A stretch of DNA of 64,000 nucleotides from a virus (IMGVR_UViG_3300031908_000002:2337-66336); one strand, 5' to 3'; shown: positions 12,448 to 37,412, counted from the stretch's first letter. Program-made: numbers and translations. The notes: generated by a model from the sequence alone, not told the origin.

Positions 12448-13138
12448 TCCCTTACTTCCTGTTAAACGCATCACTTACATCTTGATCCAGCGCGTCCCTT
12501 ACTTCTTGTCAAAGCCCCTAGATACGTGGCTTTGCGGGAAACCAGCTAAGAACGCGACGAATGCCCCCTGCCGTAGCTAGGCGAAGTAGGGGGAGGGGGT
12601 CAGGGGCATCCCTTACTTCCTGTTAGGGTCCGCCCCTTACATCCTGTTAGGGTCCGTCCCTTACTTCTTGTTACGAGCTATCCCTTACATCTTGATCCAC
12701 CGCATCACTTACATCTTGTCAAAGCCGCTTCGCAAAGGGCTTTGCGAAGAAACAGGCAATCCCTTACATCCTGATCCAACCCTGATCCTTCAACGAGGAA
12801 CCGAACCATGAACAACGCCATCGCCATGATGTGGGCCTACTACGGTCACATCGCTGAACTGCTGTACCAATGGATTGAACGCCAGTTTCCCGGCTATCCG
12901 GCGCTGGTGTTGCTCGCCCCGATGTGGCCGATGATCCTCACCGTGGTCATCGTCCTGATCGCCAACGAAGTGAGCCACCGCCTGATGCTGCGGCGCCTGC
13001 GTAGGGACATCGCAGCCCGCCGTGCCCGTGCCATACAGGAACGGGAAGCGGCCAGCCGAGTCCCTGCGGATCGTCATTGACTACCCCCGGTAGCCATCCC
13101 TTACATCTTGTTCCACCCGCTATCCCGTACATCTTGTT
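12448..13138. repeat. Direct-repeat array, 11 copies of TC(C/A)CTTAC(A/T)TC(C/T)TG(T/A)(T/C)
   Basis: Units at 12448, 12471, 12495, 12609, 12633, 12657, 12681, 12705 (five at exact 24-bp period), 12760, 13097, 13123. Confidence 0.9.
12808..13080 (+). CDS. Hypothetical membrane protein (90 aa)
   Basis: GAGGA SD, hydrophobic central helix. Confidence 0.7.
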   Translation: MNNAIAMMWAYYGHIAELLYQWIERQFPGYPALVLLAPMWPMILTVVIVLIANEVSHRLMLRRLRRDIAARRARAIQEREAASRVPADRH

Positions 13139-13216
13139 CCACCCCCGGCTCGCAAAGCCCTTTGCGAAGTGAAGCGACAAGCGAGCCCACCTTCATCAAA
13201 GTAGGAGCAACACACC

Positions 13217-13471
13217 ATGGCAACCTCGAACAAATCCACCCCTGCCAAACCAGCCCGCTACTGGATGGGCTCTGACCCGAAAGCCTGCGACATCTGCCGC
13301 AAGGACTTTGAAGACACCTTTATCGACGGCGCCACCCTGCGTGGCCCGTGGGCGAACATGTGCCCTGCCTGCTGGGACCGTGGCCTTGGCCTTGGCGGCG
13401 CCTGCACTGAGGGTCGCGGTCAGCGCTACCAGCGCCAAGCCGATGGTCGCTGGTTGAAGGTGGAGGGCTGA
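13217..13471 (+). CDS. Small Zn-finger-like protein
   Basis: CDIC...MCPAC pairs; AGGAG SD. Confidence 0.75.
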   Translation: MATSNKSTPAKPARYWMGSDPKACDICRKDFEDTFIDGATLRGPWANMCPACWDRGLGLGGACTEGRGQRYQRQADGRWLKVEG

Positions 13472-13474
13472 GTC

Positions 13475-13831
13475 ATGAGCTGGACGACCCACTACGAACA
13501 GGCCACCAAGCAGGAACGCCTCGCTGCGGCCTTGGAAGACGTGAAGTTCTACCTCGGTGACGCCTACCCTCGCACCCTGCAAAGCCTGCGCGACTACTGG
13601 CAGGAGAACAGCCGCTGCTCCGTGGTCAGCCGCTACCGTGAGGGGCGGATGGTCATGGCGAACATCGTGGGCATACAGGGGAAGACCCCGTATGGAGCGT
13701 TGCTGCGTGCGGCATTGAAGCCGGCAACCCTCGCCCCTGAGCGCAAGCCGCATCTCACCCTGATCCTCACCGGCTCCATGCGTGTGATCGACATGGACAA
13801 TGCCCACGACGATCTTGAAGACGCCAACTGA
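13475..13831 (+). CDS. Hypothetical protein (118 aa)
   Basis: Tightly packed ORF after 13471. Confidence 0.65.
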   Translation: MSWTTHYEQATKQERLAAALEDVKFYLGDAYPRTLQSLRDYWQENSRCSVVSRYREGRMVMANIVGIQGKTPYGALLRAALKPATLAPERKPHLTLILTGSMRVIDMDNAHDDLEDAN

Positions 13832-13840
13832 TCCACCCCC

Positions 13841-13890
13841 AGCCCTTCGCAGCGTGCTCGCAAAGCACTTTGCGAGGGGCTTTTGTGTTT
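13841..13890 (+). terminator. Long terminator hairpin mutually exclusive with a palindrome copy
   Basis: 13841-13858 pairs with 13864-13881, followed by TTTGTGTTT; palindrome 13857-13876 overlaps it. Confidence 0.55.
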
Positions 13891-13929
13891 GTCGCACCAC
13901 CACCTGTCCCTTCATCTTGGAGACACAAA

Positions 13930-14565
13930 ATGGCTACGAAGAAACGCCCTCCTGCCCCGCCTGAACCCAACGAGGCAGACCACGACCCTGACCTGATCCC
14001 CCGTGCCTTGGCCCAGCTCAAGTCCACCCTGCGGGACCGGACCGGCCTTGTGCAGTTCAAGTCGGACGAGAACGTGCATGACTACCTGCGATTGAAGATT
14101 GGTCACATCGACGACCGCGAGGTGTTCGGTGTGATCTGGCTGGACGGGCAGGGCAGCATCATTGAAGACGTCAGGCTGGCCGAAGGCGGGTTGACCGAGA
14201 CGCACATCAGCCTCAAGCAGGTCCTGCGCAGTGCGTTGGACTACAAGGCTCACGCCGGGATCGTGTACCACAATCATCCCAGCGGGTATTCCGACCCCAG
14301 CGACAACGACATCAAGCTGACCGAGCGCCTGGGCTATCTGCTGGGGATGCTGGAGATCGAGCTGGTTGATCACTACATTGTCGGCTGTGACTCGGACTTG
14401 CAGGTGGGCAGCGTCAAGGATTACGTCACTGCCAAGGAGAAAGAGCAGGAAGAGCAGCAGGGCAAGCACGTGCGGATGCTGCGGGAGATGGGCATCGACG
14501 TCCCTAAAGGCGCGAGAGTGCCGGAAGGTCTGGTCCGCATCCTGCGAATGCTGCACGGCCTGTAG
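13930..14565 (+). CDS. radC: RadC-like JAB/MPN domain protein
   Basis: REVFGVIWLD, HNHPSGYSDPSDNDIKLT, IELVDHYIVG; start ATG 13930 after GGAG. Confidence 0.88.
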   Translation: MATKKRPPAPPEPNEADHDPDLIPRALAQLKSTLRDRTGLVQFKSDENVHDYLRLKIGHIDDREVFGVIWLDGQGSIIEDVRLAEGGLTETHISLKQVLRSALDYKAHAGIVYHNHPSGYSDPSDNDIKLTERLGYLLGMLEIELVDHYIVGCDSDLQVGSVKDYVTAKEKEQEEQQGKHVRMLREMGIDVPKGARVPEGLVRILRMLHGL

Positions 14566-14645
14566 CCACTAAAAGACGAAGGGTTCGCAAAGGGCTTTGC
14601 GAACCTGTTCCCCGAAGTTAGCAACACGATTGAAGGAGATCGACT

Positions 14646-15029
14646 ATGAACGCGCTGACCGAACACGGCCCCGCCCATGCCATCGCCAACCCGGAGGCCA
14701 ACCCAGCCACGGCCCTGATTATCGACGTGCCTACGGTGAAGACCGCCCATGCCACCCTGCGGGGCTTGCAGAAGGCGATCAACGCCAACGTGGGTGAGCG
14801 TACCCATACGGAAGAGGACATCTTGGCCGTGGCCGAAGCCCTCGGCCTGACGCTGCTCAGCCATGAAGTCACCAAACGGGCCACCAACAACGAGTACGGC
14901 CTGCCGGCCACACCCACCAGCCCGGAGGAAGTGTTCTTCCATGTGTGCTTCCTGCCGCCACCGCGCTACGCCGAGGACGGCCCACGCAAGGCGGGCTATC
15001 TGACGATTTACATGCCAGTCAACCAGTGA
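14646..15029 (+). CDS. Hypothetical protein (127 aa)
   Basis: AAGGAG SD, palindrome upstream. Confidence 0.7.
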   Translation: MNALTEHGPAHAIANPEANPATALIIDVPTVKTAHATLRGLQKAINANVGERTHTEEDILAVAEALGLTLLSHEVTKRATNNEYGLPATPTSPEEVFFHVCFLPPPRYAEDGPRKAGYLTIYMPVNQ

Positions 15030-15063
15030 CAGGCACCACCAACCAACAAGAGAGGTCTTCAAC

Positions 15064-15408
15064 ATGACCGCTGAACACTTGGGCATCCAAGCCCTACCCT
15101 GCTCGCCGCAGGAGCTGAAGCAGCACGTTCTGCCTACCCTCGGCCCACGTGCCTGCCAGTTCCTGCTGGAGCAGGTGACGAAGGCGCCGCACGACATGAT
15201 GACGCTGTGCTTCGTGGCCAAGGCCGGCTTCGGCGTCGGCCCCAAAGGCGTGGGACGCTCCGTGGAGTGGGAGTTCCAGAGCGTGCTGAGCATGTCGGAG
15301 GACGAACTGGAGCTGGTGGCCAGCCGCCTGCCGACGATCAAGCGCCTGTACGCCAGCCGCAAGGCGTGGCAGGTGGCGATCCACACCAGCCTGCCCGCCA
15401 GCCACTGA
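15064..15408 (+). CDS. Hypothetical protein (114 aa)
   Basis: GAGG SD, packed ORF. Confidence 0.65.
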   Translation: MTAEHLGIQALPCSPQELKQHVLPTLGPRACQFLLEQVTKAPHDMMTLCFVAKAGFGVGPKGVGRSVEWEFQSVLSMSEDELELVASRLPTIKRLYASRKAWQVAIHTSLPASH

Positions 15409-15469
15409 CCTAACCCCTAACCCCAGCCCTTCGCAAAGTCACTTTGCGAACTATGAAGGAATCAATCCG

Positions 15470-15805
15470 ATGGAAACGAAGTACACCGTGATCCTGCCCA
15501 ACGGCGAAGAGACGGAGCACTGCGAGGACCTGCCGGAGTTCCCCGGCTACGAACGGCTCGCGCTGATCGTCGAACCACTGTTAGGCCCAGGAGTTTTCAT
15601 GGAGCACGTGACCGTGCTCCACAACGGCATCTACACCGACATGTTCGTCGACGAACACGGCGGGCAGAAGCGCCTGCTGCGCAACCCCAAGGCGACGGTC
15701 ATCTACCGGCACAATTGGATGAGTAGCCACGAAGGGTGTGACCCGGAAGTGCTGAACTACATCGTTGGACCGGCTGTGCTGTTTCACCGCCGGGTGTGGG
15801 ACTGA
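15470..15805 (+). CDS. DUF3846-like protein
   Basis: IVEPLLG...EHVTV...MFVDEHG..KRL.RNPKAT...IVGPAVLF. Confidence 0.55.
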   Translation: METKYTVILPNGEETEHCEDLPEFPGYERLALIVEPLLGPGVFMEHVTVLHNGIYTDMFVDEHGGQKRLLRNPKATVIYRHNWMSSHEGCDPEVLNYIVGPAVLFHRRVWD

Positions 15806-15883
15806 CGCAAAACGTCACACACCCTCCACCCAACCGAAACCCCTGTGACATGCAACACCCATCCTTCACTTAGGAAAACGACC

Positions 15884-16486
15884 ATGAAACACGAACTCGC
15901 TTACGTGCTGACGGCTGCCCATATGGCCGAGCTCGAAGACTGCATCCGCCTGCTGAACTATGCGGATAACAACTTCACCAAAGTGACCACCCGTGAGGGG
16001 ATCATTGAACGTCTCAACGCACTCACCCCTCACCTGAAGGCTTGCCCTGAACTGCGCAAGCTCCCGCTCGTCCCCCGCATCCCCAACGTCGATCCCCTGA
16101 CGGCGGCAGAGATCAACGAACTGAACCAGTTCAATGGCATCCTGCACGTCTATCTCACGGCCCCTCTGCGCGCTGCGTGCCCAGAGTCCGAGGACGGTTA
16201 CGACCTCGTGGACTGGGCCAAGGCCCATTGGCTGATCCAGCAAGCCACCCCCAACGACCTCGCCCTGTACGTGGCCTGCCTGCGCCGCATCCTGCTGTTC
16301 ACCGAAGGCAAGACCGACTATGAAGCGATCAACGTCTACCTCGGCGTGCGAGTGAACAAGGACGCCACCAGCGACCCGGTTGGCTGGCTGGAGAACGGGA
16401 TGCTGTTCAAGCGACAGGACAGCAGCAAGTTCTTCCTCGGTGGCATCCAGCGCTCCCTCCACGGCATCCCTGAGTTCCACTCGTAA
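15884..16486 (+). CDS. Hypothetical protein (200 aa)
   Basis: AGGA SD with CCTTCA leader. Confidence 0.7.
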   Translation: MKHELAYVLTAAHMAELEDCIRLLNYADNNFTKVTTREGIIERLNALTPHLKACPELRKLPLVPRIPNVDPLTAAEINELNQFNGILHVYLTAPLRAACPESEDGYDLVDWAKAHWLIQQATPNDLALYVACLRRILLFTEGKTDYEAINVYLGVRVNKDATSDPVGWLENGMLFKRQDSSKFFLGGIQRSLHGIPEFHS

Positions 16487-16496
16487 GGAGTCGGTC

Positions 16497-16853
16497 ATGA
16501 GCAAATTAGTTTGCGCCCATGCCGACACTTGCCTGTCGGACTTCTGGGGCGGTCATCACCTGCCGCACATACAGGTGGCGGTACACCGGGGTATGCACCT
16601 CTCCGAGCTCAAGCGTGAGCTGCACAGCGCGCTGAACGAAGGCGCAGTGGCGGGCAATGATCCCGTGACCCGCGACGACTCCGGCGAGGAAGGCGACCGT
16701 TGGTTCAAGAAGGCCCACGCCGCCGTGAACCGGATCACGCCAGCGCAGAAGAAAAAGCGCCGGCTGTTCGAGGACTTGGAAGAGGTTGACCCCGAGGACG
16801 ACAGCGCCCCGATGGTCTACGCCTTCTTCGTGTTCCAACCGGACGAGGACTGA
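16497..16853 (+). CDS. Hypothetical protein
   Basis: AAGGAG SD, ATG 16497. Confidence 0.7.
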   Translation: MSKLVCAHADTCLSDFWGGHHLPHIQVAVHRGMHLSELKRELHSALNEGAVAGNDPVTRDDSGEEGDRWFKKAHAAVNRITPAQKKKRRLFEDLEEVDPEDDSAPMVYAFFVFQPDED

Positions 16854-16856
16854 GCC

Positions 16857-17300
16857 ATGTCGATCATGAACGACATCACCAAGTCCGTCGAAGGGGCGGA
16901 CAACCTGTCGATCGTGGTACTGGTCGCTGGCATCGAGGACACCCCCGATCCGGTCACGATGACGTGGCGTCAGGCCCGTGCGCGGCTCGCAAAGCCACTT
17001 TGCGAACTGTACGACGCTTGCCTGCGCTGGGCGATGGACTTGGAAAACTACGGCTTCAAGGTCACCAAGCTGGAGTTCACCACCAACCTCGAAGTCAAGG
17101 ACCGGATACGGATGAGGGTCTGTGCGCTGGACTACAACGGCACCTCGCACTCCTGCTCCGGCAACTGCATGTTGGAAGAGGACACCCTGCCCAAGCACGG
17201 CGGAGCGACCTTCCTGTACCTGAGCAGCAACCTGCAAGAGTTGGAAGACCTCTACGAAGACGCGGTGTACCGCCAGCGGGAAAAGGAGAAGCAGTCATGA
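16857..17300 (+). CDS. Hypothetical protein (147 aa), contains intragenic palindrome
   Basis: Packed ORF; palindrome encodes AKPLCE. Confidence 0.65.
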   Translation: MSIMNDITKSVEGADNLSIVVLVAGIEDTPDPVTMTWRQARARLAKPLCELYDACLRWAMDLENYGFKVTKLEFTTNLEVKDRIRMRVCALDYNGTSHSCSGNCMLEEDTLPKHGGATFLYLSSNLQELEDLYEDAVYRQREKEKQS

Positions 17301-17764
17301 ACGAGACAATCAACCGGGCCTACATCGCCGCGCAACTGCGCCAGCTCGCCACGGCGGAGCACCACTACACCCTGCAATTGGGCAGTGATGCCGGGGGGAA
17401 GACCAACCACCTGAACATCACGCCCAGCCAGTTCGCCATGCTGGTGCCGCTGCTGCTGATCGAACCGGACCGCAACCTGTACCACCAGTTGAACCGGTTG
17501 CTGGCCCAGGCTCGCGGCTGCATCGACGAACCGATTGCACTGGAGTACGCCCCGGACGTGTTCATCGAGGTACGACCCATCACGGACGACAACCGGGTCA
17601 GCGTGATGAAGCGCGGGCATGGCTTCACCTGCGTGAACTACACCCCCGAGGGGGTGATCGTCGACGTGATCGACGAGAACACTGACGAGGTTCACACAGT
17701 TTCAATTACGAACGACGGCCTGACCCTCCCCGAGGGCAGCGACCAACAACAACAGCCCGACTGA
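17297..17764 (+). CDS. Hypothetical protein
   Basis: AAGGAG SD, ATGA overlap. Confidence 0.7.
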   Translation: MNETINRAYIAAQLRQLATAEHHYTLQLGSDAGGKTNHLNITPSQFAMLVPLLLIEPDRNLYHQLNRLLAQARGCIDEPIALEYAPDVFIEVRPITDDNRVSVMKRGHGFTCVNYTPEGVIVDVIDENTDEVHTVSITNDGLTLPEGSDQQQQPD

Positions 17765-17766
17765 TC

Positions 17767-18099
17767 GTGACCGTCATGAAGAAAGACGAACTAGCCAAGC
17801 TACTTGCCGAGAAAGCCGCAGAGTTCCAGCAATACGGCGGCGAGATAGTGCGGTACGCCAGCCCGGAGAAGCCCAACAAGATCAAGTTGGGCGCGGCTCC
17901 GATTTTGCCGGACAACCTGCGTGATGCGGAATGGGAGCGGTACCTGCAAGAACTGTACTCCGGCACCTACGCCCCGGACACGGACTTCCGGGCACCGGAG
18001 CCGAAGCCGAAGAAGCCACCGAAGCTGCCGAAAGGCGAGGACGGCAGGGGGTGGAAGCCCATCAAGAACCATGGACCTAAATGGAAGGAGGACAAGTGA
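17767..18099 (+). CDS. Hypothetical protein (110 aa), Lys/Pro-rich C-terminus
   Basis: Packed ORF. Confidence 0.6.
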   Translation: MTVMKKDELAKLLAEKAAEFQQYGGEIVRYASPEKPNKIKLGAAPILPDNLRDAEWERYLQELYSGTYAPDTDFRAPEPKPKKPPKLPKGEDGRGWKPIKNHGPKWKEDK

Positions 18100-18263
18100 T
18101 CTGGAAAATACTCGACGAGGTGCCGTGGCAGGCAAAGCTGATCCTCTGGCTGTGGCTGCTGTGGACCTTCAAGTACATCGCCCTGTGGGTAGCGGCGGTG
18201 TACGTGCTGTGGTGCGTCCTGAAGTGCTTCTGGCTGTGCGTCAACAACCCGGAGGACGAGTGA
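18096..18263 (+). CDS. Small Trp-rich membrane protein
   Basis: GGAGG SD, GTGA overlap; hydrophobic. Confidence 0.65.
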   Translation: MIWKILDEVPWQAKLILWLWLLWTFKYIALWVAAVYVLWCVLKCFWLCVNNPEDE

Positions 18264-18400
18264 TGTGGAAGCTGTTCGACTCCATGCCGTGGTGGGGAAA
18301 GCTGATCGTCGTTGGCTACCTCATGGTCGCCTTCAGGATCGCCATGGTCGTGTTCGGGCTCTGGCTGTTCCTGAGCTGGGCCTTCAACAACAACAAGTAA
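18263..18400 (+). CDS. Small membrane protein, paralog of 18096..18263
   Basis: MWKLFDSMPWWGKLIVV vs MIWKILDEVPWQAKLIL. Confidence 0.65.
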   Translation: MWKLFDSMPWWGKLIVVGYLMVAFRIAMVVFGLWLFLSWAFNNNK

Positions 18401-18412
18401 GAAGAGGCTGAA

Positions 18413-18769
18413 ATGATTAGTTCAAAGACACAGGTCCTGACGCTGGACCGGGAGCAGGTGGACCGACTGGTCACCTTCTGCCAGTGCAACGGGCTGGAGA
18501 AGTTCTTCGTGGCAAAAGACCAAGGCGCCTATATCGGCGCCACTGTCGGTTCTGAGCCCGACCAAAAGGTCATCTTCTACTTCCCGCACTGCGACCCGGA
18601 GAAGGACGAGGACTGGTACGAAAACGCCCGCGAGCGCTTCGGCGGTGACGACTTCGGGCAGTTCCTGCCGGTCAGGGACTTGACCACCATGCTGGGCCGG
18701 GAAGGGGCGAGGGGCGTGAAGGTCATCGTGACCGAAGAGTTCATCAACATCGAACCCGTGCGGGACTGA
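18413..18769 (+). CDS. DUF3085-like protein
   Basis: KDQGAYI...CDPEKDEDWY..AR..FGGDDFGQFL. Confidence 0.65.
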   Translation: MISSKTQVLTLDREQVDRLVTFCQCNGLEKFFVAKDQGAYIGATVGSEPDQKVIFYFPHCDPEKDEDWYENARERFGGDDFGQFLPVRDLTTMLGREGARGVKVIVTEEFINIEPVRD

Positions 18770-18809
18770 CCTTCGCAAAGCCACTTTGCGAACTAAGAAG
18801 GAGACAACC

Positions 18810-19208
18810 ATGTTCTATGTCATCGGACACGACGAGGCCGGCAAGTTGGTCGCCATGACCAGCAAGGCCTTCCCCACGGAGGCGGCGGCGGATGAGTACG
18901 CCGCTACCTGCAACCAAGGCTGGACGCCGTTTGTGGTGCAGCACTGCAAGCCGCTGGACAACCGCCTGGAAGTGGCCGAACGCCGGGTAGCGGAGCTGGA
19001 GAAACACCAGCAGGCCATCCAAGCCTTGGCCCGTCGAACGCTGTGGATAGCGTACTGCTGGAACGACCACAACTTCGGCCCTGCGCACGTCGAAGCGCGC
19101 AAAGAGGCCGAGCGCTTCGGGATCGACGGCTTCCACGCCGCCAACGCCTTCATCGAAGAGATGCCGGACATCAAGGCGATGCGGGAAGGGGAGGCCGAGC
19201 AACCGTGA
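18810..19208 (+). CDS. Hypothetical protein
   Basis: AAGGAG SD after palindrome. Confidence 0.7.
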   Translation: MFYVIGHDEAGKLVAMTSKAFPTEAAADEYAATCNQGWTPFVVQHCKPLDNRLEVAERRVAELEKHQQAIQALARRTLWIAYCWNDHNFGPAHVEARKEAERFGIDGFHAANAFIEEMPDIKAMREGEAEQP

Positions 19209-19681
19209 ACACGGAAGAGTTCATCCGGCAGGCTGCGGCCAATGGCTGGTCGAAGGCGCAGACCATGCAAGCGCTGGGCATGTGCCGGGAGTATTTCTGG
19301 GAGATTTTGAAGAGCTGGCCGGACATCGTTTGGGCCAAGCGGGGGATGACCCTCGGCAACAAGATCGGCAACGCGAACCGGCCCAAGGGCGCCAGCGAGA
19401 AGATGCTGGCGGCGCTGGACCGGGCACGGGCCGCTCGCCGGGACAACCATTTGTACACGTGGCAGGGCCGTACCGGCACGGTCAAGGAGCTGGCGGTGTT
19501 TGCCAAGGCCAGCGAACGGACCATCCACCGCCGGCTAAAGGAAGGGAAGTCGGTGGACGATGCCTTCGGCCTGCCACCCAACAAAACCCCGCCAAAGACG
19601 GGACTCCGCACCCTTGTCAGGGTGCCCAACAGCTACATCACCCGAGAGGGGCTGCATCATGAAGAAGAAAGTGGACCATAA
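19205..19681 (+). CDS. Putative HTH DNA-binding protein
   Basis: C-terminal YTWQGRTGTVKELA...SERTIHRRLKEGKSVDDAF resembles the HTH tail of phage HNH endonucleases. Confidence 0.5.
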   Translation: MNTEEFIRQAAANGWSKAQTMQALGMCREYFWEILKSWPDIVWAKRGMTLGNKIGNANRPKGASEKMLAALDRARAARRDNHLYTWQGRTGTVKELAVFAKASERTIHRRLKEGKSVDDAFGLPPNKTPPKTGLRTLVRVPNSYITREGLHHEEESGP

Positions 19682-20831
19682 CCCGGACCTTGATCGTCTG
19701 GTGGACTGGCCAACCAAGTACAAGTTGGGATCGAAAGGCCCAACCGTGAAGCAATTGCTCGACTCCGGCTTCTGCCGGATCAGGGCCAGCGCTGACGTGC
19801 GGGACTGCATCGCCCGGTTGGACAAGAAGGACTGGATGGACTACGTGCAGGTCGAGTTCCCAGGCTCTGGCAGTTGGAGTCGGGAGAAGTGTGCGGACCG
19901 GTTCCGCTGCCTGTTGGCCAAGGGTTTCCGCAACGTGCCAACCCCCTTGCTGGAGCAGTTGCCGTTCTCGGACGAGGCTGACGCACCGACCGAGTTCCGC
20001 TACCACTGGAGCTTCGCCGGCAAGCGGGTTGAGGTCGAGCCCAAGATCAAGCCCGAGGCCCAGCCTGACCCAATGAAAAAGGTTAGGGGAATCTCGAAGG
20101 CGGCAGCCAAGGCAGCGGCAGCGGAGAAGGCCAAGGCCTTGGAAGGGGAGCATCACCCGGCGCCTGACCCAGTGCCGCCGATGCCCAAGGAATACGAGAT
20201 GGTCACGCTGACGGACGGGACGCAGGTGAGCATGAGCAAACAGGACAGCGACAACCCGTTCGCGGCACTGGCAGCCATGGCTCACGACCACGACGACGAC
20301 TCGCGCACGGAGTCACCGGCCCCGGTTCCGCCGCAGCAACGGGCACCGGCAGCGGTCGATGACATTGAAGACGGTGAGTGGTCACACGTCCACGACACGC
20401 CAGCGCCAACGGCGCACGTCGACACGCTATCGCTGGAGCCGCTGCCTACGAAGGTGGTGGTCGTGAAGTTCGAGGTCACCGGGGATCGGGAGTATTTCTA
20501 CTTCGCCCCGGATGACGCCAAGCCCGGTGATTGGGCGGTGGTCTACGCCAAGCTGGAGAACGACACGGGGGCGAGGTTCGCCATTGGCCAGATCGAACGG
20601 GATGACCCGGACCTTGAGGGCATGGCGCGCTACGCGGTTCTCGGCGTGTTCAACGAGGCGTTTGCCCAGTCGATTCAGGCACGGATGGACCGTGTGTCGC
20701 AGATCAAGGCCCGCCTGCAACGCAAGAAACAGCAGTTCGACGAGCGCCATATTTACGAGCTGATGGCCAAGGTTGACCCCGAGGCCCGCGAGTTGCTGGA
20801 CCTGCTCAAGAAGCTGGAAGGCGAACTGTAA
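19659..20831 (+). CDS. Hypothetical multidomain protein (390 aa) with Pro/Ala-rich linker
   Basis: Long ORF, coiled-coil C-terminus. Confidence 0.65.
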   Translation: MKKKVDHNPDLDRLVDWPTKYKLGSKGPTVKQLLDSGFCRIRASADVRDCIARLDKKDWMDYVQVEFPGSGSWSREKCADRFRCLLAKGFRNVPTPLLEQLPFSDEADAPTEFRYHWSFAGKRVEVEPKIKPEAQPDPMKKVRGISKAAAKAAAAEKAKALEGEHHPAPDPVPPMPKEYEMVTLTDGTQVSMSKQDSDNPFAALAAMAHDHDDDSRTESPAPVPPQQRAPAAVDDIEDGEWSHVHDTPAPTAHVDTLSLEPLPTKVVVVKFEVTGDREYFYFAPDDAKPGDWAVVYAKLENDTGARFAIGQIERDDPDLEGMARYAVLGVFNEAFAQSIQARMDRVSQIKARLQRKKQQFDERHIYELMAKVDPEARELLDLLKKLEGEL

Positions 20832-20888
20832 CCAACACCTTCGCAAAGCCACTTTGCGAAGGATTCCTTCATTCAGGAGAGCAACAAG

Positions 20889-21254
20889 ATGGCAACTCTT
20901 ACCTTTGAAGTCGAAGTCCACTTCGACGATGACTGTTCGCTGGTCACCAGACCGGACAAAGCCAAGGTCACGATCAGCACCCTCGACGTGCTGACGTGGC
21001 TGCACTGGACCAAGGTGATCAAGGCCGAGAACCTGTACAAGGTCGAGGCCTGGGACCACCGCTGCGTTTTCTACAACGAGGTCGAGCCGTTTGTCCTCGA
21101 AGAGAACACCGAGTTCCGGCAGGAGGCAGCCCGCGTCGTGGTTGACGACGGCGGCGTGTGCTTCGAGGGCTTCGAGAAGGGCGGCAACACGCGCACCGGT
21201 TGGTCAACCGAAGAACTGACCTTAGAAGACCTCGCAAAGCAACTTTGCGAATAA
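20889..21254 (+). CDS. Hypothetical protein (121 aa), ends in a palindrome copy
   Basis: AGGAG SD; last codons AKQLCE. Confidence 0.7.
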   Translation: MATLTFEVEVHFDDDCSLVTRPDKAKVTISTLDVLTWLHWTKVIKAENLYKVEAWDHRCVFYNEVEPFVLEENTEFRQEAARVVVDDGGVCFEGFEKGGNTRTGWSTEELTLEDLAKQLCE

Positions 21255-21281
21255 CAAGACCTTCATCAAGGAGAGCACTAC

Positions 21282-21512
21282 ATGGCAACGAAGAACGTGA
21301 AAGTCACCCCGCCCAACGGCGAGACCGGGATCGTGCCGATTCAGGCTACCGTCCTGACGCAGTACCTGCTGCACGCGGCAGGCGGTGGCTTCACCAGCGA
21401 GGAAACGGCCAAGGCCATCGAAGCGCGCCACACCCTCAATGACGGGGGTGAGGTGGTGCTTGGCAATTGGCGGTTCGAGCCCATCGACGAAGGGGATGAC
21501 GATGAGAGTTAG
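21282..21512 (+). CDS. Hypothetical protein (76 aa)
   Basis: AAGGAG SD with CCTTCA leader. Confidence 0.7.
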   Translation: MATKNVKVTPPNGETGIVPIQATVLTQYLLHAAGGGFTSEETAKAIEARHTLNDGGEVVLGNWRFEPIDEGDDDES

Positions 21513-21921
21513 CCCTTGGCGAAAACGCGCCCGAGTGCCGCAAGACACGGCCACTTACAACGCATGGCGTACCAACGTCCCGCCGCTGGACCAGCCGGTA
21601 GGCCTGTCGTTCACCAACAAAGAAACGGGCGAGATCATGGAGATCAGCCTGACCGATATGGAGGCGCAGGAAGTTGGTCGCGCCCTGCTGCAAATCACAG
21701 GAGGACTGATCATGGGCACCCCTGACATGGAACAACGCGCCGCCGTGCGCCGCTTTGCAAGGAAACAAGGTGGCCGCTGGAAGGCCGAGCTGCATATCTG
21801 CTGGATGAACGCGGCCTACCCGGATGCCCCGGAAGCCGACAAGCCGCTGCTCCAGCAGGTGCGCAACCAGTTCGGCCCGCTGTGGCTGGAGAAGGTCACG
21901 CTCAAGGACTTGGAGCCATGA
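21502..21921 (+). CDS. Hypothetical protein
   Basis: Overlapping packed ORF, start ATG 21502. Confidence 0.55.
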   Translation: MRVSPWRKRARVPQDTATYNAWRTNVPPLDQPVGLSFTNKETGEIMEISLTDMEAQEVGRALLQITGGLIMGTPDMEQRAAVRRFARKQGGRWKAELHICWMNAAYPDAPEADKPLLQQVRNQFGPLWLEKVTLKDLEP

Positions 21922-24616: not shown

Positions 24617-24669
24617 CCCACCGGCTCGCAAAGTGACTTTGCGAGCCCCCTTCATCAAGGAGTACAGAA

Positions 24670-25889: not shown

Positions 25890-25942
25890 CCAACCCGGCT
25901 CGCAAAGTCCCTTTGCGAGCCCCCTTCACCGAGGACTGCAAC

Positions 25943-27781: not shown

Positions 27782-28153
27782 ATGGCCAAGTTCAAGATCG
27801 AATTACTACCCGGCGCGTCCGAAGGCGACAGGGAAAGGGCGTTCCAGCTCTGCTGTTCGCTGGACGCCCTGCTGCCCGTGCTGGTCCTACGGATGGAGGA
27901 AGAGCTGGGCGTTCTGCTGGGCGTGGACCGGCGCAATCTGCTGGCGCAGGTGCAGACGCTGGGTGCCGAGGAAGTGGCGCTGCGGGCGCTGGCTGCCGTG
28001 CTGACGAACGCCGCCGAACGGATCGGTCCACGGAATGCACGGATCACCTTTGCCCTGCACCGGGAGGACAGTACCGTCGACTCGCGTGGCTGCAAGGCGT
28101 CGGTGGATCGGATGCGCCGACTGCTACACGAAGAGGTAGTCACGGCGGTTTGA
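27782..28153 (+). CDS. Hypothetical protein (123 aa)
   Basis: GGAGG SD. Confidence 0.65.
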   Translation: MAKFKIELLPGASEGDRERAFQLCCSLDALLPVLVLRMEEELGVLLGVDRRNLLAQVQTLGAEEVALRALAAVLTNAAERIGPRNARITFALHREDSTVDSRGCKASVDRMRRLLHEEVVTAV

Positions 28154-28507
28154 TATGCAGAAACAAACTATGTACTGAGACTCCACTTCGTCTACTGTTC
28201 TGATCAGGAAGCAGAATAAGAAACGATGGGGGTGGCAGCCATGGTGTGCAAGGTTGTAAGCAAGCAGCGGAGGTCCGTCGTCGTTGACGAGCACCCGCGT
28301 GAGTACGTGTTCTTCTGCCATCAAGAGGCCGAGTTGCTCAGGTGTTTGTCGGGTTATCGCCGGGTCTACCACCCGGCAGAAAGGGTCCTCGCCACCGACC
28401 TGTTGGAAGCCTTCGATCCGTGCCGCCCACAGCGCACGGTGACAGTGGTTAACGGCAACGGTGACACCGACACCTTGTCCCTTCACACCTTGCACTGAGG
28501 TCTCAGG

Positions 28508-29113
28508 ATGATCGTTGAACAACTGCGTCTGAATGGATTCCACTACCTGCTCGATCTTGAGTGCGTGACCTTCCCGCCAGCCCAGCCACGCCCACACGAA
28601 CAGTGGACGGAGTTGGGCCTGTACCGGGGGCCGGTCAAGGTGCATGGCTGGCTGCTGCATATTCCAGGCATCTGCGAGCCGGAGTTTTTCACCAGACAGG
28701 AACGGGCCATTGCCCGTCACGCCTACCTGACCAGCCTGCTCAAGGCGCGCAGCTATCTGGGCGTGGTGGACGGCAACCTGTACGACTTCCGGTCGGTCCC
28801 GGTCCCTCGGGTAGTGCGGCTGGGCTACGAACACCTGTGTTCCGACATCCGTACCGGGCGTCAGCTCGCCGCGACTCTGCGGGCGATGAACAAGTTGGCG
28901 CTCAAGGAACACGCCTACTTCACCACGGCGACGGACCGGGCGCTGTGCCAATCCTGCGTGCGGCAGGAGATGGTCACGGTGGTCTATGCCATGCGCAACG
29001 AGGCCGACTTTGACTATCTGGTCAACGGCTGGTCGGTGAACTACGAAGAGCCGGGGAACCAGCTCACCTGTGACCACTGCCACCGCGAGATACCGGCGGT
29101 GACGGACAACTAA
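28508..29113 (+). CDS. Hypothetical protein with C-terminal CxxC pairs
   Basis: GAGG SD; CQSC and CDHC. Confidence 0.65.
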   Translation: MIVEQLRLNGFHYLLDLECVTFPPAQPRPHEQWTELGLYRGPVKVHGWLLHIPGICEPEFFTRQERAIARHAYLTSLLKARSYLGVVDGNLYDFRSVPVPRVVRLGYEHLCSDIRTGRQLAATLRAMNKLALKEHAYFTTATDRALCQSCVRQEMVTVVYAMRNEADFDYLVNGWSVNYEEPGNQLTCDHCHREIPAVTDN

Positions 29114-29168
29114 ACGTTTCATCGTTCGCAAAGCTGCTTTGCGAGCCACCTTCAGAGAGGGCAACACC

Positions 29169-30611
29169 ATGAACGATCGTTTCTTTACCTACGGCCCGAA
29201 CTACGGCGCGCTGACCCACTTCCACCAGCTCCCTGCATTGCTGAACAAGCACGGCGTTTCGGCGCTGGCCTTCCAGCAACTGCGCATGGCGGACAAGCCG
29301 GAGCTGACCTACATCCTGCTGCGGGCCATGCTTGAGCAGGACCTGCTGGGCGTACCCAAGGCTATGAAGGGGATGGTGGTCAAGAGGCTGCACCGCTGCC
29401 ACGTCGCGGCGCGGCGTTGGGCCAGCCTCCCCGTGAACCACACCCACGCGCTGCTCAGCGCGGTGGCGGACTTCGACAACCGCAAGGAGAACTCGCAGCG
29501 GGACGCTATGCGCAGGCTGGTCGTTGCGCTGATCGACGAGAACGGCCTGTACGACGAGGACGGGGTAGTGAAGGCGAAGCTGCAAGGCACCTTCTCCTAT
29601 GACACCTATGACCTCTGGCAGGACCGGCTCGACAACTTCTTCACGCTGGACTGCGCCAGTTGCGGGCACAGCGAAATCATCAAGAAGCCGTGGGAGTGGG
29701 CCACCTCCGGCGGAGCGGCGCTGGCGCCGGAAGACGTGCCGGAAATGCTGGAACAGGCGTGTGAATGCGCCGGCTTCGATCCCCTGAGCGGCCCCTATGT
29801 GCGCTGCATCCGCTGTGACTGGACGCAGCGCGCCAAGATAGGCGAGGCCGTCTCCCTGCCTGATGACGAAGGCGACGACATTGACGACCTCGAAGAACAG
29901 TGGACCGATTACGTCGAGCACCTGGGAACGCTGGTCGAAGCGCTGGTCGAGCACGCCAAGCAGCACGGCCTGCCTGCACCCTACCGGCTGAAGGTCATCG
30001 CCAACCGCATCCGCTGGGACGGAGCCACCGGCTACACCGACTGCGAAGTGGACGGCAAGGCGCTGGCGGACAAGCTGAAGGTCGACAGCGACTTCTCTAT
30101 CAGCAGCGGCAAGCTGTGGCTGGAGCCGGACGGGACAGGGATGCTCACCTGCTCGCTCGCGCACCACGACGCCACCGGCTTCATGGAAGTCGTCCCGCAG
30201 TGGCTGTGTGAACTGGCCGACCGCGACACTGACGACGACGCGCTGATCGAGGCCGATCAGGTGCCAGCGTGCAGCACGTGGCTGCCGATGATTGCCAACA
30301 CCCTGCTGTGCGGCAAGGGTATGCCATTCGCGTTCACGTCCAAGTTCGCCTTCAAGATGGTCAGCCGCACCCACTTGATTACCGCTTTGGAGTGGATGCA
30401 GAAGCAACTCGATTGGGATGACGAAGTGCTGGAACTGGAAGGCGTGTGGGCGGTGCAGATCGCCGGCAACTTGCTGATGAAACAGATGTGCTACTTGATC
30501 CGCACCACGGTTAGCGACGTTGAAGGGTATGCACTGGCACAAACAGCGCAGCAACTAAGGGCAGTGATCGACACGTTCTTGGTCGAGAAACAAAACTTCC
30601 CCGAACAATAA
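29169..30611 (+). CDS. Large hypothetical protein (480 aa) with Cys pairs and acidic patch
   Basis: CCTTCA leader and palindrome upstream; CASC, CEC, CIRC; DDEGDDIDDLEE. Confidence 0.7.
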   Translation: MNDRFFTYGPNYGALTHFHQLPALLNKHGVSALAFQQLRMADKPELTYILLRAMLEQDLLGVPKAMKGMVVKRLHRCHVAARRWASLPVNHTHALLSAVADFDNRKENSQRDAMRRLVVALIDENGLYDEDGVVKAKLQGTFSYDTYDLWQDRLDNFFTLDCASCGHSEIIKKPWEWATSGGAALAPEDVPEMLEQACECAGFDPLSGPYVRCIRCDWTQRAKIGEAVSLPDDEGDDIDDLEEQWTDYVEHLGTLVEALVEHAKQHGLPAPYRLKVIANRIRWDGATGYTDCEVDGKALADKLKVDSDFSISSGKLWLEPDGTGMLTCSLAHHDATGFMEVVPQWLCELADRDTDDDALIEADQVPACSTWLPMIANTLLCGKGMPFAFTSKFAFKMVSRTHLITALEWMQKQLDWDDEVLELEGVWAVQIAGNLLMKQMCYLIRTTVSDVEGYALAQTAQQLRAVIDTFLVEKQNFPEQ

Positions 30612-35540: not shown

Positions 35541-35701
35541 TGAAAGGCTGGCTCGATAAGTTTCGCCTTTGGGCGGCTTTCGGGCTGGCCGGTGCAGTCG
35601 TGCTGGTCGATTCGACCAGCCGTCTGCTTTCCATGTGCGCCGACCTTGTGCTGGTCGCCGCGCTCATGGCGGTCATGCTCATGTTCAAATCGAAAGACTG
35701 A
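35540..35701 (+). CDS. 53-aa membrane protein (not in ORF track)
   Basis: TAATG overlap; MKGWLDKFRLWAAFGLAGAVVLVDSTSRLLSMCADLVLVAALMAVMLMFKSKD. Confidence 0.6.
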   Translation: MKGWLDKFRLWAAFGLAGAVVLVDSTSRLLSMCADLVLVAALMAVMLMFKSKD

Positions 35702-35711
35702 GGGGAACACA

Positions 35712-36086
35712 GTGATCAATCTGCGACAGCAACAGGTGACCGTTAAGCGTGAGAAGTTGCTTGAGGCACTGAGGAATGGCAAGGAAGCGCACGACGCCGA
35801 ATACGCTCAGGCGCTGGACGACTACAAGGCAGCGGTGACTCGCTTCCTGACCGACGCGCTGGCACGCTCCCTCAAGGGTGACTTCTCCAACGTCATCCTG
35901 CGCCTGCCAAAGCCTGAATACTTCGGCAAGGAATACACCAACGTGATCGACATGGTGGAGATGTCCATCGACGAAACATTCACCATCGACGGGGATTCCT
36001 TCAGGGCGTACTTCAGGGGTGAATGGTCGTGGCGTAGTACCTTTGAAGCAGCCTCCGGTACGCTCAAGAGCTACTTGGAGTCCTGA
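35712..36086 (+). CDS. Hypothetical protein
   Basis: GAGG SD, GTG start. Confidence 0.65.
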   Translation: MINLRQQQVTVKREKLLEALRNGKEAHDAEYAQALDDYKAAVTRFLTDALARSLKGDFSNVILRLPKPEYFGKEYTNVIDMVEMSIDETFTIDGDSFRAYFRGEWSWRSTFEAASGTLKSYLES

Positions 36087-36237
36087 TGTGCCTGTATGAC
36101 ACGTCACCAGATAATTGGGACCATCTGCTCGACATTGGCTTTTTGGCTATTGTCGTTGCAATGGCGCTGCTGCTTGAGAAGCGCCATAAACGCCCCTGAT
36201 CTCGCAAAGTCCTTTGCGAACAACCGAGGAAACATAG

Positions 36238-36501
36238 ATGACAAACAAGTCCAACCGTCCCGCTTTCAACCAAGCCGCCGTGGTGGCGGTCCCTGAGACC
36301 GTCGAAACGGTTGCTGCTGAAGCCGCCGCTGAAGCAAACGCCGAGGCAGTAGCAGAAGCCACCGCGCCGGCTGCTCCGCTCAACATGGGTGCGCCGCTGG
36401 CTGCCATCCTCAAGTCTGCCGTGAATGACATGCACCACTACGGGGTCATCACGGACGCCGAGGCCGTCTCCCTCAAGGAACGGATCGAGGCCAAGAGCTA
36501 A
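36238..36501 (+). CDS. Ala/Glu-rich hypothetical protein
   Basis: GAGGA SD, palindrome upstream. Confidence 0.7.
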   Translation: MTNKSNRPAFNQAAVVAVPETVETVAAEAAAEANAEAVAEATAPAAPLNMGAPLAAILKSAVNDMHHYGVITDAEAVSLKERIEAKS

Positions 36502-36505
36502 CACC

Positions 36506-36529
36506 CAACCCCGGCCTCCGCCGGGGTTG
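36506..36529 (+). terminator. Hairpin after 36501 stop
   Basis: CAACCCCGGC-CTCC-GCCGGGGTTG; weak U-tract. Confidence 0.5.
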
Positions 36530-36560
36530 TTGCATCTGAACCTTCATCGAGGAAATCAAC

Positions 36561-37412
36561 ATGCTGTTCAACGTAGCGCACCGCTTCTACGCGGACCTGA
36601 ATCTCGTCCTGCTCTACCTGCCGGACGAATGCAATCTCGACAACTTCGAGGACGAGGACCTGCCGCTGGACATCGTGCCAGACGTCACCACGTCCACGGA
36701 GCATGTCACGGAAGGCGGTGGACGGTACGCCCACGCCTCGTCCACCGCCTACCTGCGCCTGGAACCTTACGACAGTGAGGCGGCGTACCAACACCTGCCT
36801 GAGCCGGTAAAGAAGGCCTATCAGGCGTTCTCGAACAAGCTGGGTGAGGTGCTGAAGAACCAAGAGTGGGGCGTACAGCTCCGCCAAGCCGTGGCGCTGG
36901 CCTATCAGGTCGAGGCAGGTTTGCAGCGGACCCCGCCTCGCGTGCATCTGGAGCTGACGGTCGACATCCCCTACTCGGTCAAGGGGCTGCGCACCGTGGA
37001 AGCCCAGCGCCAGCGCGCCGAGGATGCGGCGGCATTGGCAGGGCACAAGCTGCGCACCACCCTGCTGCTGGAGGCCAAGCGCGCTGTGGCGAGGATGCAG
37101 GAGGTGTTGGTTGTCGCCCTCGAAGCCTTCAACGCCCAGCAGGTGAAACCCCTGCTGACCCAGATCGACCTCGGCCTGTGGCCTCAGAAGGCCTATGCCG
37201 CCGACGTGGAGGCTTCGCACGAGCGATACCGGAACATCCAGAACGAGCTGGCCAAGATGCAAATCGAGGCTGACATGCTCTGGAAGGCATACAGCGAGAT
37301 GTACAAGTCGTCGGTCGCAAAGGACTTTGCGAACGACTTCCCTACCGACTCGCTGCTGGAAAACGTGTTAACCCGCAACATCAACCGCTTCAATCCCCTG
37401 CGCTACCTGTGA
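36561..37412 (+). CDS. Hypothetical protein (283 aa), intragenic palindrome
   Basis: CCTTCA leader; palindrome encodes AKDFAN. Confidence 0.7.
   Translation: MLFNVAHRFYADLNLVLLYLPDECNLDNFEDEDLPLDIVPDVTTSTEHVTEGGGRYAHASSTAYLRLEPYDSEAAYQHLPEPVKKAYQAFSNKLGEVLKNQEWGVQLRQAVALAYQVEAGLQRTPPRVHLELTVDIPYSVKGLRTVEAQRQRAEDAAALAGHKLRTTLLLEAKRAVARMQEVLVVALEAFNAQQVKPLLTQIDLGLWPQKAYAADVEASHERYRNIQNELAKMQIEADMLWKAYSEMYKSSVAKDFANDFPTDSLLENVLTRNINRFNPLRYL

What the first reader, a model, noticed from the sequence alone, without database searches (positions are those of the whole stretch)
12786..36561. Fixed-distance CCTTCA-SD leader cassette on at least ten early genes, often fused to the palindrome
Seen: CCTTCA at 12787, 13190, 13909, 15863, 20866, 21260, 24649, 25923, 29149 and 36541, lying 20-23 nt before ATG (one at 27) and followed by AGGA/GGAG. 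CCT(T) can pair with the SD (e.g. CCTT-CATC-AAGG, TCCT-TCAACG-AGGA). The frequent order is stop, C-rich tract, palindrome, CCTTCA, SD, ATG. Established: T4-type phages shuffle early genes through repeated promoter/stem-loop cassettes (PeSL). Inference: a shared translational switch (SD occlusion opened by a factor or by processing) and a recombination handle for modular gene exchange.
Basis: partly seen in the sequence, partly recalled or inferred. Interest (0 to 1): 0.72.

Follow-up and report, generated by a model that had tools for sequence, protein, structure and literature searches.

The report
Conserved CCTTCA box before early-gene ribosome sites
Ten early genes of an uncultured 60% GC tailed phage carry the same six bases, CCTTCA, exactly four bases ahead of their ribosome-binding site; a related phage keeps them unchanged, so this is a real start-associated control element of unknown mechanism, most like the unexplained SAS/ESAS motifs of mycobacteriophages.

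Summary
All ten CCTTCA sites exist. Anchored on the Shine-Dalgarno GG, nine are exactly CCTTCA-N4-GG and one is N8; shuffled leaders gave at most 4 for any hexamer at one offset. A metagenomic relative (67-88% nt identity) keeps CCTTCA at all nine comparable leaders (54/54 bases) while flanking bases change, so the box is under selection.

- CCUU is predicted to pair with the RAGG of the SD in 7-8 leaders. These hairpins are weak (-1.4 to -4.1 kcal/mol), and the SD is no harder to open than in other genes (p=0.27).
- No covariation is possible, and pairing does not explain the invariant CA.
- Box and palindrome are separable: the relative lacks one palindrome (30-nt indel) but keeps the box.
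- The PeSL analogy fails. This is not a T4-type phage, the cassettes hold no sigma-70 promoter, and gene gain/loss breakpoints are not enriched at them.

More distant relatives (60% DNA polymerase identity) have a different pyrimidine box, ACCCACC(T/C), at the same place. All of these phages encode CsrA, a candidate trans factor.

The closest known analogue is SAS/ESAS of Cluster K mycobacteriophages, so this is a new variant of a known kind. One tool, the look-up of encoding contigs, was closed.

The parts
12787..12798 (+). Leader box CCTTCA-N4-GG before the 90-aa gene 12808-13080
   Evidence: The relative keeps it while everything further upstream than about 14 nt differs.
13190..13205 (+). 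Variant leader box CCTTCA-N8-GG before gene 13217-13471
   Evidence: The N8 spacing is kept in the relative. The window has a 17-nt insertion between palindrome and box that repeats GCGAG.
13909..13920 (+). Leader box before the RadC-like gene 13930-14565
15863..15874 (+). Leader box before gene 15884-16486; no palindrome upstream
   Evidence: In the relative the N4 changes at 3 positions while CCTTCA and AGGAAAACGA are kept.
20866..20877 (+). Leader box before gene 20889-21254
   Evidence: The relative keeps TCCTTCA-SD but lacks the palindrome.
21260..21271 (+). Leader box before gene 21282-21512
24649..24660 (+). Leader box before gene 24670-25083
25923..25934 (+). Leader box before the ArdA-like antirestriction gene 25943-26386
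   Evidence: Orthologues in G002/G003 carry ACCCACCC-G(A/C)GA-AGGGAG instead.
29149..29160 (+). Leader box before the 480-aa gene 29169-30611
36541..36552 (+). Leader box before gene 36561-37412, downstream of a GC-rich terminator-like hairpin
   Evidence: No relative sequence was available here.
11646..11657 (+). Orphan copy: palindrome, CCTTCA, then GGGAGG directly, with no canonical start codon within 12 nt
20842..20858 (+). Palindrome CGCAAAG-N3-CTTTGCG 7 nt upstream of a box; it lies inside a 30-nt indel
21233..21249 (+). Palindrome upstream of box 21260
24627..24643 (+). Palindrome upstream of box 24649
   Evidence: The relative has an HNH gene inserted just upstream.
25901..25917 (+). 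Palindrome upstream of box 25923
29127..29143 (+). Palindrome upstream of box 29149
   Evidence: The spacer is 3 nt in the window and 1 nt in the relative.
9237..9431 (-). Phage CsrA gene, a candidate trans-acting factor (context, not shown to act here)
   Evidence: PF02599 65.6 bits and phrog_9500. Matches solved CsrA/RsmE structures at E 2e-16 with the ...HREEIY... segment kept. Present in G001-G004.

Best explanation
CCTTCA-N4-GG is a start-associated cis element. It belongs to the translation-initiation region of the first gene of about ten early gene clusters, and it acts in the mRNA.

The most concrete model is this. CCUU (or UCCU) folds back on the RAGG/AGGA core of the Shine-Dalgarno sequence, making a 3-5 bp hairpin with a 4-6 nt loop directly 3' of the unrelated, much stronger intergenic palindrome hairpin. 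This partly masks the ribosome-binding site and sets, or makes regulatable, de novo initiation at cistrons that are not translationally coupled.

Shown:
- the motif and its fixed spacing to the SD;
- its restriction to early + strand leaders with an intergenic gap of 27 nt or more;
- its strict conservation in a relative;
- its independence from the palindrome.

Inferred:
- that it acts in RNA;
- that the hairpin forms;
- that the effect is on initiation;
- whether the effect is a throttle or a switch.
For: - Fixed spacing to the SD rather than to the palindrome: N4 in 9/10, while the palindrome-to-box distance runs from 3 to 40 nt.
- One orientation only, always upstream of + strand starts. 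It is absent from the ~40 early-region genes with gaps under 27 nt or overlapping starts, and from all virion genes.
- Purifying selection. In 9 orthologous leaders CCTTCA is 54/54 identical, against 6/40 changes in the spacer and about 19/70 between SD and ATG. P(0/54) is about 1.5e-4 at 15% divergence.
- All spacer substitutions fall at predicted loop or unpaired positions.
- Predicted pairing of the box with the SD: summed probability 2-3.7 bp in 8 leaders. Local SD-upstream pairing is 0.56 vs 0.13 in other genes (p=2e-5), and 0.73 vs 0.50 for composition-matched shuffles.
- Relatives at 60% DNA polymerase identity have a different pyrimidine box at the same place: CCU-GNRA-AGGA (12 leaders) or CCC-GNRA-AGGG (8), with only 2 of the mixed type CCC-AGGA (Fisher 1.4e-4). 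This fits a family-wide SD-adjacent mini-hairpin.
- The same gene (ArdA-like) has the CCTTCA box here and the ACCCACCC box in G002/G003.
Against: - The hairpins are marginal (-1.4 to -4.1 kcal/mol). The cost of opening the SD is not higher than in other genes (4.0 vs 3.4 kcal/mol, p=0.27).
- In the relatives, pairing is barely above composition-matched shuffles (0.42-0.46 vs 0.37-0.40).
- CCTTCA is invariant, so no compensatory change can be scored. Pairing does not explain the conserved CA.
- Two leaders use a different register (UCCU:AGGA, 6-nt loop) yet keep the same N4 spacing. Two (13190, 13909) show little or no direct box-to-SD pairing.
- The T/AGGA vs C/AGGG association in the relatives is not phylogenetically independent and could reflect two copied leader types.
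- There are no expression data.
Confidence: 0.4

Rival explanations
1. The box, with or without the small hairpin, is the operator of a trans-acting regulator: a phage protein or small RNA that represses or activates a regulon of early, partly anti-defence genes. This would resemble T4 RegA. The phage's own CsrA binding the adjacent A(N)GGA is one candidate.
For: - Strict sequence conservation, including the unpaired CA, and rigid N4 spacing regardless of pairing register.
- The box is lineage-specific while the position is family-wide, as expected if box and factor co-evolve.
- CsrA with intact RNA-binding residues is encoded at 9237-9431 and in all relatives.
- 8 of 10 SDs read A(N)GGA, and two read UCAAGGAG, which matches CANGGANG.
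- A WYL_2/Sm-like protein follows the last box gene.
Against: - CsrA recognises GGA, not CCUUCA, and it is conserved in relatives that carry a different box. CsrA specificity therefore cannot explain the lineage-specific sequence.
- No RegA, S21 or RNase family was found.
- No complementary RNA is conserved. The only similar repeat, the 24-bp array, is absent from the relative.
Confidence: 0.3
2. The box is a pyrimidine-rich translational enhancer or standby site (for example for ribosomal protein S1) that helps 30S subunits load at cistrons which cannot use translational coupling.
For: - It is found only at leaders with an intergenic gap of 27 nt or more.
- Relatives have another C-rich box at the same place.
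- S1 prefers single-stranded pyrimidine-rich RNA just 5' of the SD (established knowledge, not tested here).
Against: - S1 binding is not sequence-specific enough to hold six bases invariant.
- 12 of 22 gap leaders in the same region lack the box.
- A box that pairs with the SD would be expected to lower initiation, not raise it.
Confidence: 0.12
3. The cassette is a PeSL-like mobile regulatory unit: palindrome plus leader serve as homology for modular gene exchange.
For: - Cassettes sit before small ORFans and anti-defence genes.
- Some cassettes are similar over about 50 nt (24627 vs 25901).
- The palindrome itself shows presence/absence and internal duplication.
- One indel (an HNH gene) abuts a cassette.
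Against: - PeSLs are defined by a strong sigma-70 promoter plus a terminator stem-loop (PMC2839356). No promoter-like site lies in any cassette, and no T-run follows the stem.
- Of 10 indels or replacements against the relative, only 3 have one boundary within 25 nt of a cassette. The chance expectation is 32% (12 of ~37 junctions carry a cassette). None is flanked by cassettes on both sides.
- Six bases are too short to be a recombination substrate.
Confidence: 0.06
4. The box is a DNA-level signal: part of a phage promoter or transcription start, or a binding site of a DNA-binding protein.
For: - It is orientation-specific and intergenic.
- It resembles the array unit ATCCCTTACATCTTG, which differs from the 13909 box by a 1-nt indel and looks like an iteron or operator.
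Against: - No RNA polymerase gene was found in the genes scanned here; the largest protein of the relatives is a tape measure.
- Nothing further upstream than about 14 nt is conserved with the relative at 12787 and 15863.
- A -10 at this position would start transcripts at or after the SD.
- The spacing is fixed to the SD, not to any upstream element.
- The array is missing in the relative, which keeps all boxes.
Confidence: 0.07
5. The box is a functionless remnant of duplicated leaders.
For: Sub-families share longer strings (GCGAGCC(C/A)CCTTCA at four sites).
Against: - 54/54 bases are conserved across two genomes whose neighbouring bases diverged 15-27%.
- Flanks of different copies are unrelated.
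Confidence: 0.05

Closest known systems
[quoted passage not shown] 2011, PMC3203893; still functionally unexplained in 2025, PMC12699233)
   Same: - A short asymmetric motif in one orientation, a few bases from the start codons of 11-19 genes.
- Restricted to the non-structural half of the genome, overlapping or adjoining the SD, and strongly linked to ATG starts.
- About half of the copies are preceded by an inverted repeat with a variable spacer, and the repeat's sequence differs between sublineages.
- One gene family has the motif with the repeat in some phages and without it in another. This matches here.
   Different: - The sequence is unrelated (GGGATAGGAGCCC vs CCTTCA-N4-GG).
- SAS contains the SD and lies 3-7 nt from the start; this box lies upstream of the SD and 20-23 nt from the ATG.
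- ESAS arms are 17 bp, imperfect, 4-13 nt apart, and judged not to form RNA hairpins. Here the arms are 8-11 bp, near-perfect, 1-3 nt apart and also occur inside genes.
- The host phylum and phage lineage are unrelated.
PeSL (promoter-early stem-loop) cassettes of T4-type phages (Arbiol et al. 2010, PMC2839356; PMC4122927)
   Same: A repeated intergenic stem-loop-containing unit in front of small early ORFans.
   Different: No sigma-70 promoter, no terminator tail, breakpoints not enriched, and not a T4-type phage.
T4 RegA translational operators and RegB cleavage of GGAG in early SDs (review PMC3014915)
   Same: One phage-wide post-transcriptional signal placed in the initiation regions of many early genes.
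   Different: RegA sites are A+U-rich, unstructured and overlap the AUG. RegB cuts the SD itself. No RegA homologue is present here.
SD-sequestering hairpins: fourU and short ROSE-like RNA thermometers, T4 e/soc/I-TevI early-transcript hairpins (from established knowledge)
   Same: A short pyrimidine run pairs with AGGA/AAGG of the SD, sometimes behind a stabilising 5' hairpin.
   Different: Those are single-gene devices with longer, tuned stems. No Rfam family matches here, and the stems here are only 3-5 bp.
CsrA/RsmE-controlled leaders, including phage-encoded CsrA
   Same: A GGA-containing SD next to a small hairpin, with the phage encoding CsrA.
   Different: In CsrA sites the GGA sits in the loop; here it is predicted in the stem. 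CCUUCA is not a CsrA determinant.

Membership tests
PeSL (T4-type promoter-early stem-loop cassette) | Contains a strong sigma-70-like early promoter (-35, -10, AT-rich upstream region) | tested here: not met
   Only 2 promoter-like sites in 9400-29300, fewer than in shuffles, and none in a cassette. Definition.
PeSL (T4-type promoter-early stem-loop cassette) | Stem-loop acting as terminator or attenuator | tested here: inconclusive
   A stable 8-11 bp stem is present, but no T-run follows it except weakly at 13857. Termination cannot be tested here.
PeSL (T4-type promoter-early stem-loop cassette) | Insertions, deletions and replacements between close relatives are bounded by the cassettes | tested here: not met
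   3 of 10 events touch a cassette on one side and none on both; 32% is expected by chance. Only one relative and 15.9 kb were compared.
PeSL (T4-type promoter-early stem-loop cassette) | Host genome is a T4-type myovirus | tested here: not met
   60% GC. The nearest cultured DNA polymerase is Vibrio phage SHOU24 at 34%. Relatives carry a 2200-aa tape measure.
SAS/ESAS (Cluster K mycobacteriophages) | Short asymmetric motif, one orientation, immediately upstream of start codons of a subset (about 10-20) of genes | tested here: met
   10 copies, all on the + strand, 20-27 nt from an ATG and 4 nt from the SD GG.
SAS/ESAS (Cluster K mycobacteriophages) | Restricted to the non-structural part of the genome | tested here: met
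   All copies lie between 12.8 and 36.6 kb among small early genes. None is before a tail or virion gene or a replication gene.
SAS/ESAS (Cluster K mycobacteriophages) | About half of the copies are preceded by an inverted repeat with variable spacer; presence can differ between relatives | tested here: met
   8 of 10 have the palindrome within 40 nt. The spacer varies from 1 to 3 nt. One palindrome is absent in the relative.
SAS/ESAS (Cluster K mycobacteriophages) | Consensus GGGATAGGAGCCC containing the SD, in Cluster K actinophages | tested here: not met
   The motif is CCTTCA upstream of the SD, and the phage is unrelated.
SD-sequestering RNA thermometer or attenuator hairpin | SD base-paired in a hairpin whose stability makes the SD markedly less accessible | tested here: inconclusive
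   Pairing is predicted in 7-8 of 10, but opening energy is not above the genome background. No Rfam hit.
SD-sequestering RNA thermometer or attenuator hairpin | Compensatory changes keep the stem | tested here: inconclusive
   Both arms are invariant in the window and the relative. The only family-level signal, CCU/AGGA vs CCC/AGGG, is not phylogenetically independent.
CsrA-binding leader | A(N)GGA presented in a hairpin loop, usually two sites per dimer | tested here: not met
   The GGA is predicted in the stem, and there is a single GGA per leader.
CsrA-binding leader | A CsrA protein is available | tested here: met

The most novel reading that the evidence does not exclude
The box is the operator of a phage-specific translational regulon. 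A lineage-specific factor, either a protein or RNA of this phage or CsrA acting on the box-SD hairpin, would read CCUUCA-N4-GG and switch a set of early, partly anti-defence genes (ArdA-like, RadC-like and ORFans) on or off together. The different pyrimidine box in sister lineages would then mark co-evolving operator/factor pairs. This would give the long-unexplained SAS-type 'start-associated sequences' a mechanism.
Probability: 0.25. Interest if true: 0.72.

Novelty: new variant of a known kind. Interest (0 to 1): 0.5.

Why it matters
Start-associated repeat motifs have been known in Cluster K mycobacteriophages since 2011, and no mechanism has been found. This is an independent example in an unrelated high-GC phage lineage, and three features make it easier to reason about:
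- The box lies outside the SD.
- It is separable from the inverted repeat.
- Sister lineages carry a different box at the same position.

It marks a co-regulated set of early genes that includes anti-restriction functions, in a phage family that always encodes the SD-binding regulator CsrA. If the box proves to be a translational operator or a tunable SD mask, it would show how tailed phages time anti-defence genes post-transcriptionally. It would also give a compact, portable control element.

Tried and rejected
- **N4-like hairpin promoters or a phage RNA polymerase.** No RNA polymerase gene was found. The only giant protein in the relatives is a tape measure.
- **Sigma-70 promoters or intrinsic terminators in the cassettes.** None above shuffles.
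- **Sigma-54, ECF or MotA-type geometry.** Checked by eye; it does not fit, because the spacing to the palindrome is variable.
- **Known RNA families and tRNAs.** None.
- **RegA and ribosomal protein S21 genes.** None. Pfam on 50 early proteins gave no RNase or classical RNA-binding domain except WYL_2/Sm-like.
- **Close relatives through early proteins, DNA polymerase, or the palindrome in IMG/VR.** None. INPHARED megablast: none. The cassette pattern in 185,579 species genomes gave only single chance hits and no host clue.
- **The look-up of encoding contigs.** It was closed, so the Logan contigs with 91-64% DNA polymerase identity (P0001-P0007) could not be read.
- **A box/start-codon hairpin (UUCA:UGAA).** Possible in 4-5 leaders but with 15-nt loops, and never predicted by folding.
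- **The 24-bp array as decoy or antisense partner.** Attractive on sequence (12 bp with one bulge to the 13909 leader), but the array is absent from the relative, which keeps all boxes.
- **Genome-wide excess of the hexamer.** Put down to codon usage rather than function (my inference; seen on both strands).

Full report
**What the window is.** The window is 64 kb of a 66.3-kb IMG/VR virus record, estimated 81% complete, with 60% GC. Tail genes lie on the - strand at both ends. A long + strand block (9982-56521) holds about 60 small genes, followed by primase, helicases, DNA polymerase and SbcCD.
- The nearest cultured DNA polymerase is Vibrio phage SHOU24 at 34% identity.
- Uncultured relatives at about 60% identity are 82-84 kb with terminal repeats and a 2200-aa tape measure.
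- This is therefore a siphovirus-like phage, not a T4-type one.
- No RNA polymerase gene was found. In both non-coding regions that border the + strand block there are TGTACAAT boxes that look like extended -10 elements. The small genes are therefore probably read as long host-polymerase transcripts; this is inference.

**The observation.** All ten CCTTCA sites are present, 20-23 nt before an ATG (27 nt at 13190).
- The real regularity is to the Shine-Dalgarno sequence. Nine of ten are exactly CCTTCA-N4-GG. This is the top (offset, hexamer) pair among 101 leaders, with a count of 9. The runner-up has 4, and the maximum in 1000 shuffles was 2-4.
- CCTTCANNNNGG occurs 19 times against 2.7 expected.
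- The box occurs only before + strand genes between 12.8 and 36.6 kb that follow an intergenic gap of 27 nt or more (10 of 22 such leaders). It never occurs before genes with a smaller gap or an overlapping start, replication genes or virion genes.
- Genes behind the box include a RadC-like protein, an ArdA-like antirestriction protein and ORFans.

**Comparative evidence.** The exact palindrome-plus-box pattern found one real relative among JGI metagenomes: contig Ga0315912_10000369 (89 kb). Of this, 15.9 kb is held as L057 and L061, at 67-88% nucleotide identity to window 12.2-18.1 and 20.6-29.3 kb.
- All nine comparable leaders keep CCTTCA (54/54 bases) and the A-G-G of the SD.
- The spacer shows 6/40 changes, the SD-to-ATG stretch about 19/70, and sequence upstream of the box is often unalignable.
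- At 12787 and 15863, homology starts only about 5-14 nt before the box, so no larger conserved promoter surrounds it.
- The odd N8 spacing at 13190 is also kept.
- The box is therefore under purifying selection.

**Box and palindrome are separate elements.**
- The palindrome (TCGCAAAG, 1-3 nt, CTTTGCGA) has 24 exact and 3 near copies in the window, several of them inside genes.
- Its distance to the box varies from 3 to 40 nt.
- At 20842 the relative lacks it altogether (a 30-nt indel) and reads TAACCA-TCCTTCA-TAC-AGGAG.
- At 13151 the window has a 17-nt internal duplication.
- At 29127 the spacer is 3 nt here and 1 nt in the relative.
- Among gap leaders the two elements are not significantly associated (p=0.20).

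**Does the box mask the SD?**
- ViennaRNA predicts CCUU:RAGG (4-nt loop) or UCCU:AGGA (6-nt loop) in 7-8 leaders.
- Local SD-upstream pairing probability is 0.56 against 0.13 in other genes, and 0.73 against 0.50 for shuffles of the same 16 upstream bases.
- The isolated hairpins are worth only -1.4 to -4.1 kcal/mol. The ensemble cost of freeing the SD is 4.0 kcal/mol against 3.4 for the other 92 genes (p=0.27).
- Both arms are invariant, so no covariation test is possible.
- Pairing does not explain the invariant CA, nor the constant N4 spacing across two pairing registers.
- SD masking is therefore plausible but not demonstrated, and as a 'switch' it is weak.

**A family-wide pattern.** Relatives at 60% polymerase identity (G001-G005) have neither the palindrome nor CCTTCA-SD above background. 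Their early leaders carry another pyrimidine box at the same place: (T)AACCCACC(T/C) followed by GAGA or GAAA and then AGG.
- CCT goes with AGGA (12 leaders) and CCC with AGGG (8). Only 2 are the mixed type CCC-AGGA, and none is CCT-AGGG (Fisher 1.4e-4).
- This fits a 3-bp stem closed over a GNRA-type loop. The leaders are not independent, however, and predicted pairing there barely exceeds shuffles.
- The ArdA-like gene has the ACCCACCC box in G002/G003 and the CCTTCA box here.
- A pyrimidine box about 4 nt before the SD is thus ancestral to the group, and its sequence is lineage-specific.
- Every member encodes CsrA with the RNA-binding residues intact. A regulator that binds SD-type GGA motifs is therefore always present, but nothing here shows that it reads these leaders.

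**The recombination-handle idea.** PeSLs are defined by a strong sigma-70 promoter plus a terminator stem-loop, and by indels bounded by them.
- Here no promoter-like site lies in any cassette.
- Of ten indels or replacements against the relative, three touch a cassette on one side and none on both. About 32% of junctions carry a cassette, so this is the chance level.
- One of the three is a free-standing HNH homing-endonuclease gene flanked by a 9-nt direct repeat.
- The PeSL reading is not supported, though only one relative could be examined.

**Closest known system.** The best match in kind is the SAS/ESAS system of Cluster K mycobacteriophages.
- SAS is a 13-bp asymmetric motif 3-7 bp before the starts of 11-19 non-structural genes.
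- About half are preceded by inverted repeats with a variable spacer.
- The repeat sequence differs between subclusters, and one gene family has the repeat in some phages but not another.
- The function was still unknown in 2025.
- The present element shares this architecture but not the sequence, the position relative to the SD, the repeat geometry or the phage lineage.

**Verdict.** This is a real, selected, start-associated leader element, new in sequence and lineage and a variant of a known but unexplained kind.
- Best mechanism: an RNA-level effect on initiation through a small SD-adjacent hairpin (0.4).
- Main rival: an operator for a trans factor (0.3).
- Lesser rivals: an enhancer or standby site, a DNA-level site, a PeSL-like handle, or a functionless remnant.

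Noticed in passing
window 9237-9431 (-): A CsrA homologue (64 aa) is the first gene of the leftward block, next to the divergent regulatory region. CsrA is present in all four relatives checked.
   Followed up: partly
L057 reverse strand 3808-4290 (relative), equivalent to window 24607-24615: A free-standing HNH homing-endonuclease ORF is inserted in the relative just upstream of the palindrome. It is flanked by the 9-nt direct repeat CAACGTGTA.
   Followed up: partly
window 20837-20866: The palindrome here lies within a 30-nt presence/absence difference with the relative. The palindromes thus behave as insertable units, independent of genes and leaders.
   Followed up: partly
window 12447-12776 and 13096-13139: An array of about ten ATCCCTTACATCTTGTT units, five of them at a 24-bp period. 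The unit equals the 13909 leader box CCCTTCATCTTGG plus one inserted A. The whole array is missing from the relative, which has GTTCCACC-type repeats instead.
   Followed up: partly
window 9690-9840 and 11900-12240: Clustered GTGTAC/TGTACAAT boxes in the two large non-coding regions that border the + strand block, one of them AT-rich (11680-12230). They look like extended -10 early promoters or operators.
   Followed up: no
window 11626-11670: Palindrome, CCTTCA and a strong GGGAGG with no ATG/GTG/TTG within 12 nt. The frame stays open to 12123 (first GTG at 11728). This could be a non-canonical start or a non-coding leader.
   Followed up: no
G002 (L044-L048), G003 and G004 (L039-L043, L049-L053): G002 has its own repeated perfect palindrome GCGCCACATGTGGCGC (7 copies). 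G003/G004 have TTCACAATTCACAA iterons in front of early genes. Each lineage of this phage group seems to have its own intergenic repeat set.
   Followed up: partly
window 13930-28153: The early region resembles the anti-defence islands of conjugative elements and cryptic prophages: RadC, an ArdA-like protein, DUF3085, DUF6874, DUF5983, DUF6117 and a faint CbtA-like hit.
   Followed up: no
window 37421-37690 (+): A small WYL_2 / Sm-like beta-barrel protein lies directly after the last box-bearing gene. It is a possible nucleic-acid-binding factor.
   Followed up: no
window 12547-12599: A 53-nt block in the non-coding leader region is 89% conserved with the relative amid unalignable sequence. 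It is followed by a GGGGGAGGGGG run that is complementary to the C-rich leaders.
   Followed up: no
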